Positions 3,414 through 7,206 of a stretch of 64,000 nucleotides of DNA are shown piece after piece. The translations under genes and the position numbers were made by a program. Below the pieces are notes generated by a model, which made no database searches, was not told the origin of the DNA, and was given only the letters and a program-made list of their open reading frames with translations. Location of the stretch: contig CAXWPL010000004.1 of the NCBI GenBank assembly GCA_963666215.2, positions 768,001 to 832,000 on the forward strand, read 5' to 3'. Positions within the stretch are counted from its first letter, which is position 1. Each line of letters starts with the position of its first letter. The stretch comes from Acidobacteriota bacterium. Its GTDB lineage: Bacteria > Acidobacteriota > UBA890 > WLXD01.

Positions 3414-3448
3414 AGAAAGCCGGAAGCGGTTGTCGCCGCTTCCGGCTC
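3414..3448 (-). terminator. Hairpin upstream of the transposase leader, terminator-like on the antisense strand
   Basis: AGCCGGAAGCGG-TTGTCG-CCGCTTCCGGCT preceded by an A-rich AAGAAA (a U-tract on the minus strand). Confidence 0.5.
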
Positions 3449-3484
3449 AAAGCCTTTTCCCACCGTCGCTAAACAGGAGGAACG

Positions 3485-3688
3485 ATGCATTTCTACATCG
3501 GCTATTGGCCCATCGTACCACGGGGGCCGCCACTACTCCGAGGCCCCGATAAGGGGCTGTTGAACGACCCTAGAAAGCGCCCGGCTCCGCTGCTGTACAG
3601 CTCGGCCGGGCTAGATCCCAACGCGGGCAGAGCCGCACAGGAACCCTCAAAGCCATTGTGGTCCAGCCCGACATCCGGAGCAAGACCG
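3485..3688 (+). CDS. Leader peptide region MHFYIGYWPIVPRGPP... (putative arrest peptide), in frame with the transposase
   Basis: AGGAGG RBS 4 nt before the ATG. The first 16 codons are conserved with the element 2 leader, including synonymous changes. Confidence 0.55.
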
Positions 3689-4295
3689 ATGGCGAACAAG
3701 CTCTCTCAAGACAAGAAGCGCACCGTGATCTCAGCACTCGTCGAAGGCAACAGCATCCGCAGTATCGAGCGTATGACGGGCGTGCACCGCGACACCATCT
3801 GCCGGCTGCTCGTCCGCGTGGGCGACGGGTGCGAAGCGATGATGCGCGAGCGCTTCACCGGGCTCGACCTGGAGGATGTGCAGGTCGACGAGATCTGGAC
3901 CACTCCCAATCCACTAGGAGATAACCTATCCGTCGCTTCGCTCCGATGGCGTGATCACGATCAACCGTAATCAGTGATCACGTTCCCGTAATGACCGATC
4001 ACGATCACCGAAATACTCAGTTGTGGCCGGAGATCCAGATCCGGAGGCGATCTCCACGTCCTACGTCGAACGACAAAACCTGACGATGAGGATGCACATG
4101 CGGCGGTTCACGCGGCTCACCAACGGCTTCTCCAAGAACCTGCGGAACCTGCGAGCCGCCGTGTCGCTGCACTTCGCCTGGTACAACTTCGTGCGCGTCC
4201 ACAACAGCCTACGAACGACGCCTGCGGTCGTGGCGGGAGTAGCGGACGACGTTTGGTCGATGGACGATCTTCTGGCTTGGGAAGCGTCCTACTGA
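3689..4295 (+). pseudogene. IS1-family DDE transposase, internally deleted
   Basis: 5' part MANKLSQDKKRTVISALVEGNSIRSIERMTG...VDEIWT (3689-3900) and 3' part ...ISTSYVERQNLTMRMHMRRFTRLTNGFSK... (4021-4295) match the intact copy at 5354-6196. The middle is replaced by a foreign ~120-bp piece. Confidence 0.9.
3901..4019. mobile_element. Orphan end of an IS21-family element
   Basis: Three ~22-bp repeats (GTGATCACGATCAACCGTAATCA / GTGATCACGTTCCCGTAATGA / CCGATCACGATCACCGAAATAC) ending in ...CTCA at 4019, i.e. 5'-TG on the other strand. This is the repeated-end architecture typical of IS21. Confidence 0.7.
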
Positions 4296-4555
4296 TACGT
4301 GCCGCTTGCTTCTCTCACCGAGTGGAGCGTGACAGTCGTTTCATCGAAAGAGTAGTAGACGGTCAACGCCTTGATATCTGGCCACACTCCCGTGGCGATC
4401 GCCCAGATCTCATGATGCGTTTGGTGCCCCTGGGTAGGATCCAGGCAGAGAATCATATGCACCCCCGCCAGCACCTTGTCCAACCTGTTCGGGTTTGGCT
4501 CAAGGTCCCGAAACTCACGCAAGAATCGCGCTGTCTCGTGAATCCTATGCGCCAT
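4289..4555 (-). CDS. Small RelE/ParE-like putative toxin
   Basis: 88 aa, overlapping the stop of the Panacea gene. RelE-like pattern (HETARFLREF...LTVYYSFDETTVTLHSV). Confidence 0.55.
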   Translation of the reverse strand: MAHRIHETARFLREFRDLEPNPNRLDKVLAGVHMILCLDPTQGHQTHHEIWAIATGVWPDIKALTVYYSFDETTVTLHSVREASGTYQ

Positions 4556-5099
4556 CTGTCCCGGCAGCGGCGAGTTCTTGAGCTAGCTGCGCGCCGTAGG
4601 CCGTTTCTTCCTGCGTTAGGGGGCGCTTCGAGATGAAGACGGTTTCGTATGGAATAGTCTCGCCGTTCTCGACGATCTCCCACCCAACGTAACTATGCGA
4701 GAAGGCGCTGACCTCCGCCGCGTCCATGTCTTGGAAGTAATCGATGACATCGTTGACGATGGCGATCTGTTCCCCTGTGAAACCTGACAGGTCAGGGTCG
4801 CGCAGTGCCACAAGTCGATCCTGAACGAAGCCGTAACGCTCGCGGTGCTGAATGGCAGCTTCGCTCTGGTCGATGAGCCTCTTCCGAATCGGCAGCAATC
4901 GACGCGGTGCCGGCCCGCGATCAAGCCGTTGATACTCCTGCTCCGTAATCGCCGAACCGGTTTGTCCGAAGGCAATGAAGTCAGCGTAGAATAAGATCTT
5001 GTTGAGCTTGGTTGCGCCGAACTTCGGATCGTCTTCGGACCGCTCAGCAACGTACAGAATCAGCTCACGTAGCCGTTGGTCTCGTTCATCTGCGGTCAA
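4545..5099 (-). CDS. Panacea (DUF4065/SocA-like) antitoxin
   Basis: LRELILYVA...GATKLNKILFYADF...ITEQEYQRLDRGPAP...SH..GW..IPYE. Start chosen at TTG 5099 after GGAGAGGGGG; the ORF extends to 5132. Confidence 0.85.
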   Translation of the reverse strand: MTADERDQRLRELILYVAERSEDDPKFGATKLNKILFYADFIAFGQTGSAITEQEYQRLDRGPAPRRLLPIRKRLIDQSEAAIQHRERYGFVQDRLVALRDPDLSGFTGEQIAIVNDVIDYFQDMDAAEVSAFSHSYVGWEIVENGETIPYETVFISKRPLTQEETAYGAQLAQELAAAGTDGA

Positions 5100-5353
5100 A
5101 AGACACCCCCTCTCCGTCGTGTGCCCAGACAAATGTCTGTCTCACGCACCATCTTATGATCCCACGCGGAAGCCTGTCCTCATAGGACCGAAAATCCGTA
5201 GGGGGTCACGCGAGGTTCTTGCACCACCCCTGCAAAAAGCGAACCAAACTGCGCAGGAGTGACTTTCATAATGGGATACTATCCACCAGTGGGTAGTGTC
5301 CTAGTTTGAAGATCACCGCAACGTAGATTAGCACGATTATTGCCCTCTCTATC

Positions 5354-6196
5354 CTACGCCAGCGAGGGAGTCTCGAACGCCAGCAGATCCCCCAGCGCCC
5401 ACTCGCTGTCGGCAACCTCAGCCACCACGGCGGGAGTGGATCGCAGGCTGTCGTGGATACGGACGAAGTTGTACCAGGCAAAGTGCAGCGAAACGGCGGC
5501 TTCGAGGTTTCGTAGCGACTTCGAGAAGCCGTTCGTGAGCCTCGTGAAGCGCCTCATGCTCATACGCATCGTCAGGTTCTGTCTTTCGACGAAGCTCGTG
5601 GAGATCGCCTCCGGACACGGATCTCCGGCCATAACCTCAGTTGTGCAGCGGCTGACCCTCGGTGGTGAGTAACGTCCGAAGGATGGATTCGTGGCCGAGT
5701 AGCTTTTCGTCTGCGTGGCGTAGTCGATGCCACGGGCCGCCACGACGCCGAGAGCGGCCTTGTAGCCGGTGTAGGCGTCCGTAGTCAGCTGGAACGGTCC
5801 GTCGATCCTACGGGCCAGCTCCGAGATCATCTGATAGGCGTTGTGCCCGTTGCGCTTGCCGACGATCCAATGCGGCACCAACTTGGTTTCGGCGTCGAGC
5901 GCGACGAAGACCCATTGATCGCCATGCTTGGGATTCACGCGCTTGCCTGAGCGAATCACCGTGGCTTGCTTCTTCTTGACGTAGGTCCAGATTTCATCGA
6001 CCTGGAGATCGTCTAGGTGCAGACCGTGGAACCGTTCTCGCATCATGGCTTCGCAGCCCTCTCCGACCCGCACCAGTAAACGGCAAATGGTGTCGCGATG
6101 ACAGCCGGTCATGCGCTCGATGCTGCGGATGCTGTTGCCCTCCACCAGGGCGGAGACGATCATGCGTTTCTTCTCGGGGGCCAGTATGTTCGCCAT
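5354..6196 (-). CDS. IS1-family DDE transposase
   Basis: N-terminal HTH (GNSIRSIERMTGCHRDTI) and DDE motifs QVDEIWTYV, QLTTDAY, STSFVERQNLTMR. Confidence 0.92.
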   Translation of the reverse strand: MANILAPEKKRMIVSALVEGNSIRSIERMTGCHRDTICRLLVRVGEGCEAMMRERFHGLHLDDLQVDEIWTYVKKKQATVIRSGKRVNPKHGDQWVFVALDAETKLVPHWIVGKRNGHNAYQMISELARRIDGPFQLTTDAYTGYKAALGVVAARGIDYATQTKSYSATNPSFGRYSPPRVSRCTTEVMAGDPCPEAISTSFVERQNLTMRMSMRRFTRLTNGFSKSLRNLEAAVSLHFAWYNFVRIHDSLRSTPAVVAEVADSEWALGDLLAFETPSLA

Positions 6197-6252
6197 CGGT
6201 CTTGCTCCGGATGGCGGGCAGGACCACAATGGCTGTGAGGGTCCGATGCGGT

Positions 6253-6399
6253 CTATGCCCGCGTCTTGGATCTAGCCCGGTTCGCTGTTCGTGCAGTGGG
6301 CCGGGCGCTTTTTTGGTCGTGGAGGAGGCCCCTTTCGGGGCATGGGAGGCATGGCGGACCCCGTGGTAAGATAGGCAAATGACCGATGTGGAAACGCAT
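6253..6399 (-). CDS. Leader peptide MRFHIGHLPILPRGPP... (48 aa, putative arrest peptide)
   Basis: AGGAGG RBS, ATG at 6399, TAG at 6255-6253. Homologous to the 3485 leader. Confidence 0.55.
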   Translation of the reverse strand: MRFHIGHLPILPRGPPCLPCPERGLLHDQKSARPTARTANRARSKTRA

Positions 6400-6424
6400 C
6401 GTTCCTCCTGTTCAGAAGCGGGAG

Positions 6425-6499
6425 AGCCCCGGCGGGGAATCGAACCCCTATCAACCGGTTTTCAAGGCCGGTGCCCTTTGCCATTCGGGTAACCGGGGC
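6425..6499 (-). tRNA. Atypical tRNA or tRNA-like RNA, anticodon UGA, short variable loop, U73, inside the IS
   Basis: GCCCCGG TT ACCC GAATGGCAAA GGGC A CCGGC CTTGAAA ACCGG TTGAT AGGGG TTCGATT CCCCG CCGGGGC T. Perfect 7-bp acceptor stem, GG in the D-loop, TTCGA T-loop. No encoded CCA. Confidence 0.65.
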
Positions 6500-6512
6500 A
6501 ATGTGGTAAGTG

Positions 6513-6552
6513 GCGGCGACGAGAGGTACCAACTCTCGTCGCCGCTTTTTTT
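6513..6552 (+). terminator. Intrinsic terminator (possibly bidirectional) between the passenger gene and the tRNA-like gene
   Basis: GCGGCGACGAGAG-GTACCAA-CTCTCGTCGCCGC-TTTTTTT. Confidence 0.75.
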
Positions 6553-7032
6553 CTACGCGCCGTACCTCCGTGCTACGGCCCTGTCGATTCGATACCGACC
6601 GAAGCCGATCTTTTGCACTGCATTGTTATCAACAATACCTAGTCGAGATACTTTCGCGCGCAAAGTAGAGTCGGCAAGATCCGGATTGAACGACTTCGCC
6701 TTCCTGACGATCTCAGCAGACTTCCAGATCCGCTCCGGATCGGACGCCATCGCACGCAACACTGCTTCCTCTGCTGTCGGTGCACTGCTTCCACTGACGA
6801 CTTCCATCAACCCGATCCGTGCATCCCGTGGAAATATTTCACCAAGAGAATCGAAGATTTCACTCGCAAGTTTCAACATATGATGTCGAGTTTGTTGCAC
6901 CGCATGCATTTGACCGGCAATTTTCTGCCTACGGTCGTCTAACTCTTCGAGTTCTGCCTGAAGTGTGCCCTCGTCGTCTGCAAGTTGATGAGCGTCACGG
7001 ATCAGGCGCGTTGCAGTTTCTTTGTCTAGCAT
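6553..7032 (-). CDS. Hypothetical passenger protein: coiled coil plus probable C-terminal winged helix
   Basis: MLDKETATRLIRDAHQLADDEGTLQAELEELDDRRQK...WKSAEIVR..LRAKVSRL..VQKIGFGRYRI. GAGGG RBS and upstream TTGACT-16-TATCCT. Confidence 0.65.
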   Translation of the reverse strand: MLDKETATRLIRDAHQLADDEGTLQAELEELDDRRQKIAGQMHAVQQTRHHMLKLASEIFDSLGEIFPRDARIGLMEVVSGSSAPTAEEAVLRAMASDPERIWKSAEIVRKAKSFNPDLADSTLRAKVSRLGIVDNNAVQKIGFGRYRIDRAVARRYGA

Positions 7033-7206
7033 TTCTGTGCCCTCCGAATCGGAGGATATCACAGTCGGTAGCAAAGTCAAGAAAAAATTCAGGCACAGTT
7101 CGGCCCTCCTAGATCTGGTGTTGAGTGACAGGAAGTGGGTGAGATCGAACGTCGGGTAGTGGTCGAGCATGGGGGTTCTCAAATTAGGACACTACCCACC
7201 AGTGAC

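What the first reader, a model, noticed from the sequence alone, without database searches (positions are those of the whole stretch)
3470..3690. Conserved leader peptide ending in PRGPP upstream of both transposases (candidate ribosome-arrest control)
Seen: both elements have AACAGGAGGAACG-ATG, followed by MHFYIGYWPIVPRGPP (3485+) or MRFHIGHLPILPRGPP (6399-). Synonymous changes occur at Gly and Pro codons (GGC/GGT, CCC/CCT, GGG/GGT). The frames diverge about a dozen codons after RGPP: one runs in frame into the transposase (204 nt to its ATG), the other stops after 48 aa (203 nt). Known: RAGP (SecM), RAPP (ApdA/ApdP) and RGPP variants are nascent-chain stalling motifs. Inference: transposase translation may be gated by a stalled ribosome, which I have not seen described for an IS.
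Basis: partly seen in the sequence, partly recalled or inferred. Interest (0 to 1): 0.85.

Follow-up and report, generated by a model that had tools for sequence, protein, structure and literature searches.

The report
Proline-stall leader ORF inside an insertion sequence
Both transposase genes are preceded by a short, conserved reading frame ending in Arg-Gly-Pro-Pro, a known ribosome-stalling motif, and related mobile elements carry similar proline-stall frames, so this insertion-sequence family probably uses a stalled ribosome to control its transposase.

Summary
Both leaders sit where stated, 204 and 203 nt before the transposase ATG.

The intact copy lies inside a 1905-bp IS1-family element (window 5292-7196). 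It has 19-20-nt inverted repeats and an 8-bp target duplication. An empty-site form is present in two public runs. Its gene order is accessory gene, tRNA-like element, leader ORF, structured spacer, transposase.

A third copy in the same genome has a transposase only 41% identical. It keeps the same 16 residues, and all 4 nucleotide differences are synonymous.

Homologous elements carry other leaders: MIARAPP, ..LPRPPP, ..LARPPP, MRPPP and MPPPP. Of 74 metagenomic relatives, 23 have R[AGP]PP or PPPP upstream on the sense strand. The reverse strand has 2, and shuffles give 2.7.

In four short-spacer relatives, a covarying helix pairs the last Pro codon with the transposase Shine-Dalgarno sequence. 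A ribosome footprint at the stall lowers the opening cost by 4.6-8.4 kcal/mol.

In the window's own copies the transposase start is locked in a conserved hairpin of about -21 kcal/mol. Equilibrium folding shows no link from that hairpin to the stall site.

Verdict: this is a real stalling-type leader ORF in a new setting. Its coupling to the transposase in these copies is unresolved.

The parts
7197..7204 (.). Left copy of the 8-bp target-site duplication CACTGGTG of the intact element (copy B)
7178..7196 (-). Left inverted repeat (IRL), GGTAGTGTCCTAATTTGAG, outer end at 7196
   Evidence: 17 of 19 positions match the IRR
6553..7032 (-). Accessory gene X: coiled-coil N-terminal part and winged-helix-like C-terminal part. 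The open frame reaches 7182. ATG 7032 lies behind a promoter-like site at 7080-7053.
   Evidence: no Pfam or NCBIfam family above cut-off
6512..6546 (+). 14-bp hairpin between gene X and the tRNA-like element. Its T-run lies on the plus strand, which is antisense to the element.
6424..6499 (-). 76-nt tRNA-like element carried by the IS. ARAGORN reads anticodon UGA, there is no long variable arm, and the anticodon loop has 2 extra nt.
   Evidence: (Rfam tRNA 31.8 bits, gathering score 29)
6253..6412 (-). Leader ORF of copy B with its Shine-Dalgarno sequence (AGGAGG at 6409-6404). ATG at 6399, 48 codons, stop at 6255-6253.
6352..6363 (-). RGPP codons (CGG GGT CCG CCA), the proposed stall site of copy B
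   Evidence: motif literature
6328..6341 (-). HP1, GCCCC-GAAA-GGGGC hairpin starting 10 nt after the last Pro codon
6275..6306 (-). HP2, a conserved long hairpin with compensatory changes in L015 and L017. On the plus strand it is followed by GCTTTTTTGG, which is terminator-like for antisense transcription.
   Evidence: (I21)
6202..6230 (+). Candidate antisense promoter TTGCTC-17 nt-CACAAT. Its -35 hexamer is the complement of the transposase Shine-Dalgarno region.
   Evidence: Read. The hexamers are invariant or nearly so while the 17-nt spacer varies. The equivalent site TTGACG-17-GATAAT in L064 was found by the tool. Function is inferred.
6191..6233 (-). HP4, the hairpin that encloses the transposase Shine-Dalgarno sequence and AUG (-22.0 kcal/mol)
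   Evidence: formed in 6 of 6 group-1 sequences, with GGUC/GACC replaced by GGCCC/GGGCC or GGCC/GGCC
5354..6196 (-). Intact IS1-family transposase, 280 aa
   Evidence: Pfam DDE_Tnp_IS1 26.3 bits, cut-off 24.1; NCBIfam IS1 64.1 bits, cut-off 100
5292..5311 (+). Right inverted repeat (IRR), GGTAGTGTCCTAGTTTGAAG read from the outside, outer end at 5292
5284..5291 (.). Right copy of the target-site duplication CACTGGTG
   Evidence: empty-site joint that skips 1913 nt (1905 + 8)
3418..3447 (+). Copy A: perfect 12-bp hairpin upstream of the leader, in the position that the tRNA-like element holds in copy B
   Evidence: I5; homologous hairpins with changed stems in L003 and L029
3472..3532 (+). Copy A: Shine-Dalgarno sequence plus leader codons 1-16, MHFYIGYWPIVPRGPP (RGPP at 3521-3532). 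The frame stays open to 3970.
3543..3557 (+). Copy A HP1, GCCCC-GATAA-GGGGC
3579..3611 (+). Copy A HP2
   Evidence: (I12)
3652..3694 (+). Copy A HP4, the hairpin over the transposase Shine-Dalgarno sequence and AUG (-20.8 kcal/mol)
3689..4295 (+). Copy A transposase remnant. 3689-3904 and 4023-4295 align to copy B. The middle is missing, and about 115 nt of unrelated sequence rich in GATCACGATCA stands in its place. No IRL, IRR or gene X was found.

Best explanation
The RGPP frames are genuine, translated leader ORFs of an IS1-family insertion sequence. They belong to a wider set of proline-stall leaders (RGPP, RAPP, RPPP, MRPPP, MPPPP) placed between an accessory gene and the transposase gene. 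A ribosome that starts on the strong Shine-Dalgarno sequence and ATG is expected to stall with R-G-P on the P-site tRNA and the last Pro codon in the A site. The occupancy of that ribosome is proposed to set how much transposase is made. In short-spacer relatives the mechanism is classical translational attenuation: the last Pro codon and the following 7 nt pair with the bases that overlap the transposase Shine-Dalgarno sequence, so a stalled ribosome unmasks it. In the window's long-spacer copies the transposase Shine-Dalgarno sequence and AUG are locked in a separate conserved hairpin (HP4). I infer that the stall acts on it indirectly, through co-transcriptional folding of the spacer (an HP3 alternative to HP4) and/or a candidate antisense RNA. 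Shown here: the ORF and motif are conserved at the peptide level, the ORF lies inside the mobile unit, the start-site hairpin exists, and the attenuator helix exists in relatives. Inferred: stalling itself, and the direction and route of the effect in these two copies.
For: (1) Peptide-level constraint. Copy A differs from L003 at 4 of 48 nt, all synonymous, although the two belong to different transposase lineages (copy B and L003 are 41% identical). In 12 MPPPP/MRPPP leaders, codons 2-5 vary at 4 third positions and 1 second position (P to R). Two of these (L082, L104) have indels right after PPPP that shift the frame while the nucleotides stay conserved.
(2) Motif turnover within R-x-P-P. 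Copy B (RGPP) and L014 (MIARAPP) have transposases 90-91% identical. RPPP and RGPP leaders mix within one clade.
(3) Enrichment. 23 of 74 metagenomic loci have R[AGP]PP or PPPP within 250 nt upstream on the sense strand, against 2 of 74 on the reverse strand and 2.7 +/- 1.7 (maximum 8) in 200 shuffles. Of 24 loci listed, 22 have an in-frame start codon.
(4) Literature. RxPP with x = S, A, G or P is a selected staller (PMC7897499 passage). RGPP gives the most robust, EF-P-refractory arrest with varied N-terminal contexts and is the most avoided tetrapeptide (PMC12992588 passages). A minimal RxPP motif is described as sufficient to induce arrest (PMC10951233 passage).
(5) Attenuator in relatives. 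In the 10-bp helix, 90% of cells pair, 6 pairs change on both sides, and 0 of 500 shuffles reach this; slid controls pair at 45% or less. A stall footprint lowers the cost of opening the transposase start by 4.6-8.4 kcal/mol in 4 of 4 sequences.
(6) The transposase start is sequestered in HP4 (-20.5 to -22.0 kcal/mol) in 6 of 6 group-1 sequences, with compensatory changes.
(7) The leader lies inside the mobile unit, as shown by the inverted repeats, the target duplication and an empty-site joint.
Against: For the window's own copies, forcing a ribosome footprint at RGPP does not change pairing of the transposase start (unpaired fraction 0.19 to 0.19 and 0.25 to 0.17). It also does not lower the opening cost (0.0 and +0.8 kcal/mol). 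The same holds for the 5 MPPPP sequences folded (-1.8 to +0.2).

In L003, L085 and L105 a promoter-like TTGAC(G/A)-17-TATA(A/G)T lies between the leader and the transposase. There the leader may not be on the main transposase transcript.

Three of the four attenuator-type leaders would have to start at TTG with a weak Shine-Dalgarno sequence.

Published work says RAPP alone was not sufficient for stable arrest in ApdA and ApdP. A 3-residue context (MIARAPP) may therefore only pause the ribosome.

There are no expression or ribosome-profiling data. The exact IGxxPIxPRGPP leader is confined to 2 of 401 sampled genomes of the phylum.
Confidence: 0.6

Rival explanations
1. The leader stalls ribosomes, but the stall lowers transposase expression. 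It would act as an insulator between gene X (or outside promoters) and the transposase. A ribosome stuck at the start of the leader uncouples translation from transcription, so read-through transcripts are terminated by Rho or cleaved before the transposase gene. This would play the role that rare frameshifting plays in IS1.
For: The leader always lies between gene X and the transposase. It is kept in L003, L085 and L105, where the transposase seems to have its own promoter downstream of it. The frame after the motif is not conserved. Equilibrium folding shows no unmasking in the long-spacer forms. EF-P-dependent stalls are known to affect transcription-translation coupling (PMC5021804; search listing and start of abstract only).
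Against: The four short-spacer relatives have a helix whose geometry fits unmasking by the stalled ribosome, not silencing. No sense-strand intrinsic terminator follows the leader.
Confidence: 0.2
2. The stalled ribosome serves mainly as a 5' stabiliser. After the polycistronic RNA is cut at the tRNA-like element or hairpin, a ribosome parked 25-40 nt from the new 5' end would protect the transposase mRNA from decay that depends on the 5' end.
For: The leader ATG lies 25-39 nt after the tRNA-like element or hairpin in copies A and B, L003, L014, L017 and L029. The Shine-Dalgarno sequences are strong (AGGAGG, GAAAGGAG). The stall is at codons 2-16. This role needs no specific downstream relay. 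That stalled ribosomes stabilise mRNA in ermC is my recollection and comes from no call.
Against: In the MPPPP group the leader follows gene X directly, with no processing element between them. There is no evidence of processing, and the RNase set of the host was not examined.
Confidence: 0.08
3. The conserved block is not translated. It would be conserved as nucleic acid, for example as part of an antisense RNA, a C-rich anti-Shine-Dalgarno segment, or a protein-binding site.
For: A candidate antisense promoter and antisense-oriented terminators flank the region. The 38 nt before the ATG are also highly conserved between copy A, L003 and L029. A period-3 pattern could in principle fit one antisense frame.
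Against: The antisense frames across RGPP differ between copies A and B and end at different places. The local hairpin over codons 8-15 of copy A is not kept in L003 or copy B. The motif is enriched on the sense strand only (23 versus 2). It always follows a Shine-Dalgarno sequence and start codon within 16 codons or fewer. Unrelated nucleotide sequences all converge on R-x-P-P or PPPP.
Confidence: 0.07
4. The ORF arose by chance in the conserved left part of an IS and has no function.
For: The genome is 65% G+C, where Pro, Gly and Arg codons are common. Copy A's in-frame fusion to the transposase is evidently accidental.
Against: See the controls, the synonymous-only differences and the clustering on the transposase tree (label 'none' needs 10 changes against a shuffled mean of 24.2; 0 of 500 shuffles as low).
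Confidence: 0.02

Closest known systems
RAPP-like (RxPP) arrest peptides: ApdA, ApdP, ApcA, SecM (RAGP) and the RAPP/RGPP small ORFs of Streptomyces lividans
   Same: The core is the same: Arg-x-Pro-Pro. RGPP is reported as the strongest, EF-P-refractory variant. These peptides are encoded upstream of, and on the same strand as, the regulated gene, whose ribosome-binding site sits in a stem-loop (PMC12992588, PMC10951233, PMC7897499; passages).
   Different: Here the whole nascent chain is only 7-16 residues, so there is no signal peptide or membrane anchor and no pulling force can release the arrest. The downstream gene is a transposase inside a mobile element, not a Sec, YidC, TonB or copper gene. 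In the window's copies the stall is about 155 nt from the regulated start site. The words 'transpos', 'insertion sequence' and 'mobile' do not occur in the main text of PMC12992588. 'transpos' occurs in PMC10987492 only in a reference title and does not occur in PMC7897499. Supplementary gene lists could not be read.
Proline-codon leader ORFs of Salmonella: mgtP of mgtCBR (and mgtL of mgtA)
   Same: A very short ORF with consecutive Pro codons lies in a structured leader. The speed of its translation, set by Pro-tRNA and EF-P, controls the downstream genes (abstract of PMC3641672; search listings of PMC5299641 and PMC6460261). The MPPPP and MRPPP leaders of relatives look most like this.
   Different: mgtP controls transcription attenuation in a chromosomal virulence and transport operon. 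No sense-strand terminator is seen here. RGPP and RAPP are expected to stall even when EF-P is present.
Drug-dependent leader peptides of resistance genes (ermC, ermB, cat, cmlA type translational attenuation)
   Same: In the short-spacer relatives, a ribosome stalled on a short leader would melt the 5' arm of a helix whose 3' arm covers the Shine-Dalgarno sequence of the next gene. The comparison rests on my own knowledge of these systems.
   Different: The motif here stalls without a drug. No small-molecule ligand is implied by anything seen here.
Known controls of IS transposase synthesis: IS1 InsA with -1 frameshifting, and IS10 RNA-OUT with fold-back inhibition
   Same: The problem solved is the same: keep transposase low and shielded from outside transcription. 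The transposase start is buried in RNA structure. There is a candidate antisense promoter next to it, and an upstream DNA-binding-type accessory gene stands where insA would be. The comparison is from my own knowledge.
   Different: The transposase is a single ORF with no frameshift window. The candidate antisense RNA would start upstream of the Shine-Dalgarno sequence and would not cover the AUG. My four searches found no IS described with a stalling leader peptide.

Membership tests
RxPP / RAPP-like arrest peptides | Arg-x-Pro-Pro core (x = Ala, Gly, Ser or Pro) at the point where elongation stops | tested here: met
   RGPP occurs in copy A, copy B, L003 and L029; RAPP in L014/L022; RPPP in L015 and L017. 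The definition is from passages.
RxPP / RAPP-like arrest peptides | Encoded upstream of, and co-oriented with, the gene it regulates | tested here: met
   The leader ATG lies 199-223 nt before the transposase ATG on the same strand in the 6 group-1 sequences.
RxPP / RAPP-like arrest peptides | N-terminal signal or membrane segment, so that arrest is released by translocation force (the monitoring-substrate design) | tested here: not met
   Only 3-12 residues precede the motif. The chain would still be inside the exit tunnel.
RxPP / RAPP-like arrest peptides | Arg-dependent elongation arrest shown by toeprint or peptidyl-tRNA accumulation | not testable with these tools
   No RNA or ribosome-profiling run was listed.
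RxPP / RAPP-like arrest peptides | The stalled ribosome remodels an RNA helix that hides the downstream ribosome-binding site | tested here: inconclusive
   Met in 4 of 4 short-spacer relatives. Not seen in equilibrium folds of the 6 long-spacer sequences, including both window copies, although the ribosome-binding-site hairpin itself is conserved.
Proline-codon leader attenuators (mgtP/mgtL type) | Short leader ORF with consecutive Pro codons under selection | tested here: met
   PP in the window's copies; PPP or PPPP in relatives, with variation mainly at third positions.
Proline-codon leader attenuators (mgtP/mgtL type) | Alternative stem-loops that decide transcription termination before the coding region | tested here: not met
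   No sense-strand terminator-like site lies between the leader and the transposase in copy B. The hairpins carry their T-runs on the antisense strand.
IS1 family insertion sequence | DDE transposase matching the IS1 profiles | tested here: inconclusive
   Pfam DDE_Tnp_IS1 scores 26.3 bits against a cut-off of 24.1. NCBIfam transpos_IS1 is the best hit at 64.1 bits but falls below its cut-off of 100. Plasmid homologues about 40% identical are annotated as IS1 family transposase.
IS1 family insertion sequence | Terminal inverted repeats and a short target-site duplication | tested here: met
   Copy B has GGTAGTG... repeats (17 of 19 matching) and an 8-bp duplication. L003 has an 8-bp duplication, GCCTGTCT. 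Perfect 16-nt repeats were found in L036, L089, L096 and L097. That IS1 itself has GGT... ends and 8-9-bp duplications is recalled, not tested.
IS1 family insertion sequence | insA/insB' organisation with programmed -1 frameshift | tested here: not met
   The transposase is a single 280-aa ORF with an N-terminal helix-turn-helix.
Antisense-RNA control of transposase (IS10 RNA-OUT type) | Antisense transcript complementary to the transposase translation start | tested here: not met
   The candidate promoter (6202-6230, plus strand) would start transcription upstream of the Shine-Dalgarno sequence and run away from the AUG. Whether a transcript exists is not testable here.

The most novel reading that the evidence does not exclude
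A family of IS1-type insertion sequences has recruited minimal, force-independent ribosome-arrest peptides of 5-16 residues (RGPP, RAPP, RPPP, PPPP) as the master control of transposase synthesis. Transposition would then be tied to the state of the translation machinery (EF-P activity, prolyl-tRNA supply, ribosome rescue). The control would work together with an IS-borne tRNA-like element and an antisense RNA. This would be the first arrest-peptide switch found on a mobile element, and among the shortest natural RxPP arrest peptides.
Probability: 0.4. Interest if true: 0.85.

Novelty: new variant of a known kind. Interest (0 to 1): 0.72.

Why it matters
RxPP arrest peptides and proline-codon leaders are known as sensors for secretion, membrane insertion, metal handling and Mg2+ transport. 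Finding them as a conserved part of an insertion sequence would add a new way in which mobile DNA limits or times its own transposase. It would also suggest that transposition can respond to translational stress.

The family offers a natural series of leaders on homologous backbones: strong, EF-P-refractory RGPP and RAPP; EF-P-sensitive PPPP; and long or short spacers. It also includes very short arrest peptides that cannot be released by pulling force. These are useful for structural and mechanistic work on the peptidyl-transferase centre.

The covarying attenuator helix in the short-spacer members makes the hypothesis directly testable with simple reporters.

Tried and rejected
Exact leader elsewhere. 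A 35-nt degenerate pattern for I-G-x-x-P-I-x-P-R-G-P-P scanned over genome contigs gave 4 stretches. On reading them, all were unrelated coding or non-coding sequence. The 47-nt pattern hit 2 of 401 genomes sampled from the phylum, G000 and G082. The exact leader is therefore lineage-restricted, and only the motif class is widespread.

Stall opening the transposase start in the window's copies. This was modelled twice and not seen. A long-range pairing of leader codons 3-7 with the transposase start in copy B (11 of 13 bp, I15) is not kept in L015 or L017 by my reading, so I dropped it.

Frameshift fusion of leader and transposase. The ATG-to-ATG distances are 204, 203, 203, 199, 223 and 218 nt, with no constant phase. 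Rejected.

Conserved antisense ORF. The frames differ between the copies. Rejected.

Sense-strand promoter or terminator between leader and transposase in copy B. None was found by the scan.

Gene X family. Nothing reached a cut-off in Pfam or NCBIfam. I did not fold it.

Plasmid homologues from alphaproteobacteria. 0 of 4 have R[AGPS]PP, PPPP or HGPP within 300 nt upstream. A TTGAC(T/A)-type -35 hexamer lies close upstream of the ATG in three, and TTGCCG in the fourth.

Ambiguous motif hits that I do not count as leaders. L033 has no in-frame start; L077 has its flank cut; L024 has RAPP in a frame without a start; L049 has a GTG start 11 codons before PPPP.

Avoidance of RGPP in this genome. 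In a crude set of 4166 ORFs of at least 200 aa (shadow ORFs included), RGPP has observed/expected 0.42, against 0.81-1.42 for four permutations of its residues. This is weak support only.

RNA evidence. No RNA holder was listed.

Tree. The careful treekit search did not finish, so the quick tree was used. L047, L060, L066, L067, L091, L093 and L095 were not entered, and rows with a transposase shorter than 200 aa were dropped.

Full report
THE OBSERVATION

| | Copy A (plus strand) | Copy B (minus strand) |
|---|---|---|
| AACAGGAGGAACG | 3472-3484 | 6412-6400 |
| Leader ATG | 3485 | 6399 |
| First 16 residues | MHFYIGYWPIVPRGPP | MRFHIGHLPILPRGPP |
| Transposase ATG | 3689 | 6196 |
| Leader ATG to transposase ATG | 204 nt | 203 nt |

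The two 48-nt stretches differ at 8 positions. Three are synonymous (GGC/GGT, CCC/CCT, GGG/GGT) and five are conservative replacements. After RGPP the frames diverge. Copy A stays open into the transposase frame, while copy B stops after 48 codons.

A degenerate pattern built from the two leaders finds a third copy in the same genome, and its reversed control finds none. That copy (L003) precedes a transposase only 41% identical to copy B. It still encodes the same 16 residues as copy A, and all four nucleotide differences are synonymous third positions. A fourth copy is in a genome of another genus of the same family (G082).

WHAT THE ELEMENT IS

The transposase is a distant IS1-family enzyme. 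Pfam DDE_Tnp_IS1 scores just above its cut-off. NCBIfam's IS1 model is the best hit but falls below its cut-off. Plasmid homologues about 40% identical are annotated as IS1 family transposase.

Copy B is a complete 1905-bp insertion sequence spanning window 5292-7196.
- The inverted repeats begin GGTAGTGTCCTA, and 17 of 19 positions match.
- The element is flanked by an 8-bp direct repeat, CACTGGTG.
- In two public runs, contigs join 5273 to 7187 and skip 1913 nt, which equals 1905 + 8. Their depth is about 10-11, against 3-6 for the occupied form. One of these joints has only 27 letters on its shorter side, so I treat this as good but not perfect evidence for an empty site.
- Another end of the element joins different flanking DNA in three runs.

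The order inside the element is as follows.
- Left inverted repeat.
- An accessory gene X, with a coiled-coil part and a winged-helix-like C-terminal part. It matches no family.
- A hairpin.
- A 76-nt tRNA-like element.
- The leader ORF.
- A structured spacer of about 155 nt.
- The transposase.
- Right inverted repeat.

L003 has the same plan, with an 8-bp duplication and a hairpin in place of the tRNA-like element.

Copy A is a remnant. The middle of its transposase is replaced by about 115 nt of unrelated sequence, and I found no inverted repeats or gene X.

IS THE LEADER A CODING FEATURE, AND WHAT IS CONSERVED IN IT?

I collected homologous transposases from the same order. Of 26 genomes, 9 had a match, at 21 places. 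I also took the best 80 of 572 metagenomic relatives. Among the genome loci, 7 distinct loci have a short ORF with a start codon ending in, or containing, R-x-P-P.

| Loci | Leader |
|---|---|
| Copy A, L003, L029 | MHFYIGYWPIVPRGPP |
| Copy B | MRFHIGHLPILPRGPP |
| L014 and L022 (identical) | MIARAPPSAHP* |
| L015 | MKRFRYLCILPRPPP |
| L017 | MKRLCYIHTLARPPP |

The L014/L022 transposase is 90-91% identical to copy B.

Of the 74 metagenomic loci with at least 250 nt upstream, 23 carry R[AGP]PP or PPPP in a sense frame within 250 nt. The reverse strand has 2, and 200 shuffles give a mean of 2.7 with a maximum of 8. Of 24 loci listed, 22 have an in-frame start codon.

Twelve loci carry M-P-P-P-P or M-R-P-P-P behind a GAAAGGAG-type Shine-Dalgarno sequence (present in most of them). 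Their Pro codons vary at third positions. In two of them an indel just after PPPP changes the rest of the peptide while the nucleotides, which form a hairpin, stay conserved.

So the only peptide feature under constraint across the family is a start codon followed within 16 codons by R-x-P-P or a Pro run. The frame and the stop beyond it are free.

On a quick transposase tree the leaders cluster. One half of the tree holds 24 leader-bearing rows out of 37. The label 'none' needs 10 changes, against 24.2 in shuffles. The motif type switches within clades.

Other readings fit less well. The antisense frames are not conserved. A local hairpin over the motif in copy A is not maintained in other copies.

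WHY THIS POINTS TO RIBOSOME STALLING

Three published passages bear on the motif.
- RxPP with x = Ser, Ala, Gly or Pro, and HGPP, were selected from random libraries as elongation stallers (passage in PMC7897499).
- RGPP gives the most robust arrest with several N-terminal contexts, is not relieved by EF-P, and is the most excluded tetrapeptide in many phyla (passages in PMC12992588).
- The structural paper calls the minimal RxPP motif sufficient for arrest and notes that upstream residues modulate it (PMC10951233).

PPP and PPPP runs are the classical EF-P-dependent stalls (abstract starts listed).

The leaders here match exactly this set of sequences. In a crude ORF set from this genome, RGPP is about half as frequent as expected, while its permutations are near expectation (weak evidence).

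HOW THE STALL COULD ACT

In four distinct short-spacer metagenomic elements (L054, L059, L092, L094), the motif ends 57-65 nt before the transposase ATG. There the last Pro codon and the next 7 nt form the 5' arm of a helix. Its 3' arm ends in the first two G of the transposase Shine-Dalgarno sequence.
- 90% of cells pair.
- 6 of 10 pairs change on both sides.
- No shuffle out of 500 reaches this, and slid registers pair at 45% or less.
- A 28-nt ribosome footprint at the stall lowers the cost of opening the start region from 11.0-15.7 to 4.6-9.4 kcal/mol.

A caveat is that three of the four leaders would start at TTG.

The window's own copies are different. The spacer has three main features.
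- A GC-rich hairpin (HP1) starts 10 nt after the motif.
- A long hairpin (HP2) shows compensatory changes.
- A hairpin (HP4) of -20.5 to -22 kcal/mol encloses the transposase Shine-Dalgarno sequence and AUG in all six sequences of this group, again with compensatory changes.

A footprint at RGPP does not change the pairing or opening cost of HP4. The minimum-free-energy folds of copy B, L029 and L014 contain an alternative hairpin (HP3) that uses the 5' arm of HP4. A kinetic or relay mechanism is therefore possible, but it is not shown.

The spacer also looks like an antisense transcription unit. On the opposite strand, TTGC(T/C)(C/T)-17 nt-CACAAT is kept while the 17-nt spacer varies. This is my reading. 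The equivalent site TTGACG-17-GATAAT in L064 was found by the scan. HP2 is followed by a T-run on that strand. The gene X-leader hairpins also carry their T-runs on the antisense strand.

In L003, L085 and L105 a strong promoter-like site lies between the leader and the transposase. This fits better with the leader acting as an insulator against read-through. I therefore keep two rivals alive, an OFF/insulator role and a 5'-stabiliser role, and I give the ON/attenuation reading the highest but not overwhelming weight for these two copies.

COMPARISON WITH WHAT IS KNOWN

The leaders work like RAPP-type arrest peptides and like the proline-codon leader mgtP (abstract). They fail one defining feature of the monitoring-substrate class: they have no signal or membrane segment, and the chain never leaves the tunnel. 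They also show no sense-strand attenuator terminator.

The element is an IS1-family member by its ends, its target duplication and its best profile hit. It lacks the insA/insB' frameshift.

None of my literature searches describes a stalling leader for an IS.
- Terms RAPP, arrest peptide, transposase.
- Terms polyproline, EF-P, transposase, leader peptide, insertion sequence.
- Terms IS1 family, upstream ORF, ribosome stalling.
- Terms ISMhu11, IS1 family, passenger gene.
- Term searches inside three arrest-peptide papers.

VERDICT

This is a conserved proline-stall leader ORF in a new setting, a mobile element. A demonstrated stall-sensitive helix exists in relatives, but the route from stall to transposase in the window's two copies is unresolved. 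I rate it a new variant of a known kind, with interest 0.72.

Noticed in passing
window 6424-6499 (-); also L014 1975-2050, L022 1198-1273, L016 3415-3490, L024 1152-1227, L029 2559-2633: 75-76-nt tRNA-like genes with Ser anticodons (UGA, GGA, CGA) but no long variable arm lie inside or next to these IS copies. The window's copy scores 31.8 bits on Rfam tRNA and has 2 extra nt in the anticodon loop. The genome also has a full set of normal 90-98-nt tRNA-Ser genes. This recalls the irregular acidobacterial tRNAs linked to transposable elements in PMC5389517 (passages).
   Followed up: partly
window 6202-6316 (+); copy A equivalent about 3560-3683 (-): There is a candidate antisense RNA unit in the leader spacer. 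A conserved TTGCTC-17-CACAAT overlaps the complement of the transposase Shine-Dalgarno sequence. HP2 plus a T-run would act as its terminator, giving an RNA of roughly 75 nt that would pair with the spacer but not with the AUG.
   Followed up: partly
window 4289-5132 (-): Between the two IS copies lies a SocA/Panacea-domain antitoxin gene (4545-5132; Pfam 53.9 bits). It overlaps by 11 nt a small downstream ORF (4289-4555, 88 aa) that could be its toxin partner. The two oppositely oriented IS copies thus bracket a toxin-antitoxin-like pair.
   Followed up: no
window 3905-4022: The middle of copy A's transposase is replaced by about 115 nt containing repeated GATCACGATCA and GTGATCACG units (inverted repeat at 3951-3962 and 3997-4008). 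It may be a scar or a small inserted element.
   Followed up: no
L019, L023, L026 (G130:C2, matches at 987, 3542, 6097): Three identical copies of a related transposase locus lie head to tail with a period of 2555 bp, forming a tandem array of the element.
   Followed up: no
L009/L029 (G082:C2), about 1110 downward in L009 minus-strand coordinates: In G082, the transposase downstream of the MHFYIGYWPIVPRGPP leader is interrupted after about 84 codons by another mobile element. By my reading it encodes an IS3-type orfA/orfB pair.
   Followed up: no
L002, L003, L018, L024, L027, L110-L113: In the leader-less branch of the family, a TTGAC(A/G/T)-17-TAxxxT promoter-like site ends 6-7 nt before the transposase ATG. 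This suggests leaderless transposase mRNAs.
   Followed up: no
L085, L105, L071, L030, L033: Palindromes sit inside or next to promoter-like sites near the leader, for example ACAACGAGCGCTCGTTGT between the -35 and -10 hexamers. They may be operators for gene X or for the helix-turn-helix of the transposase.
   Followed up: no
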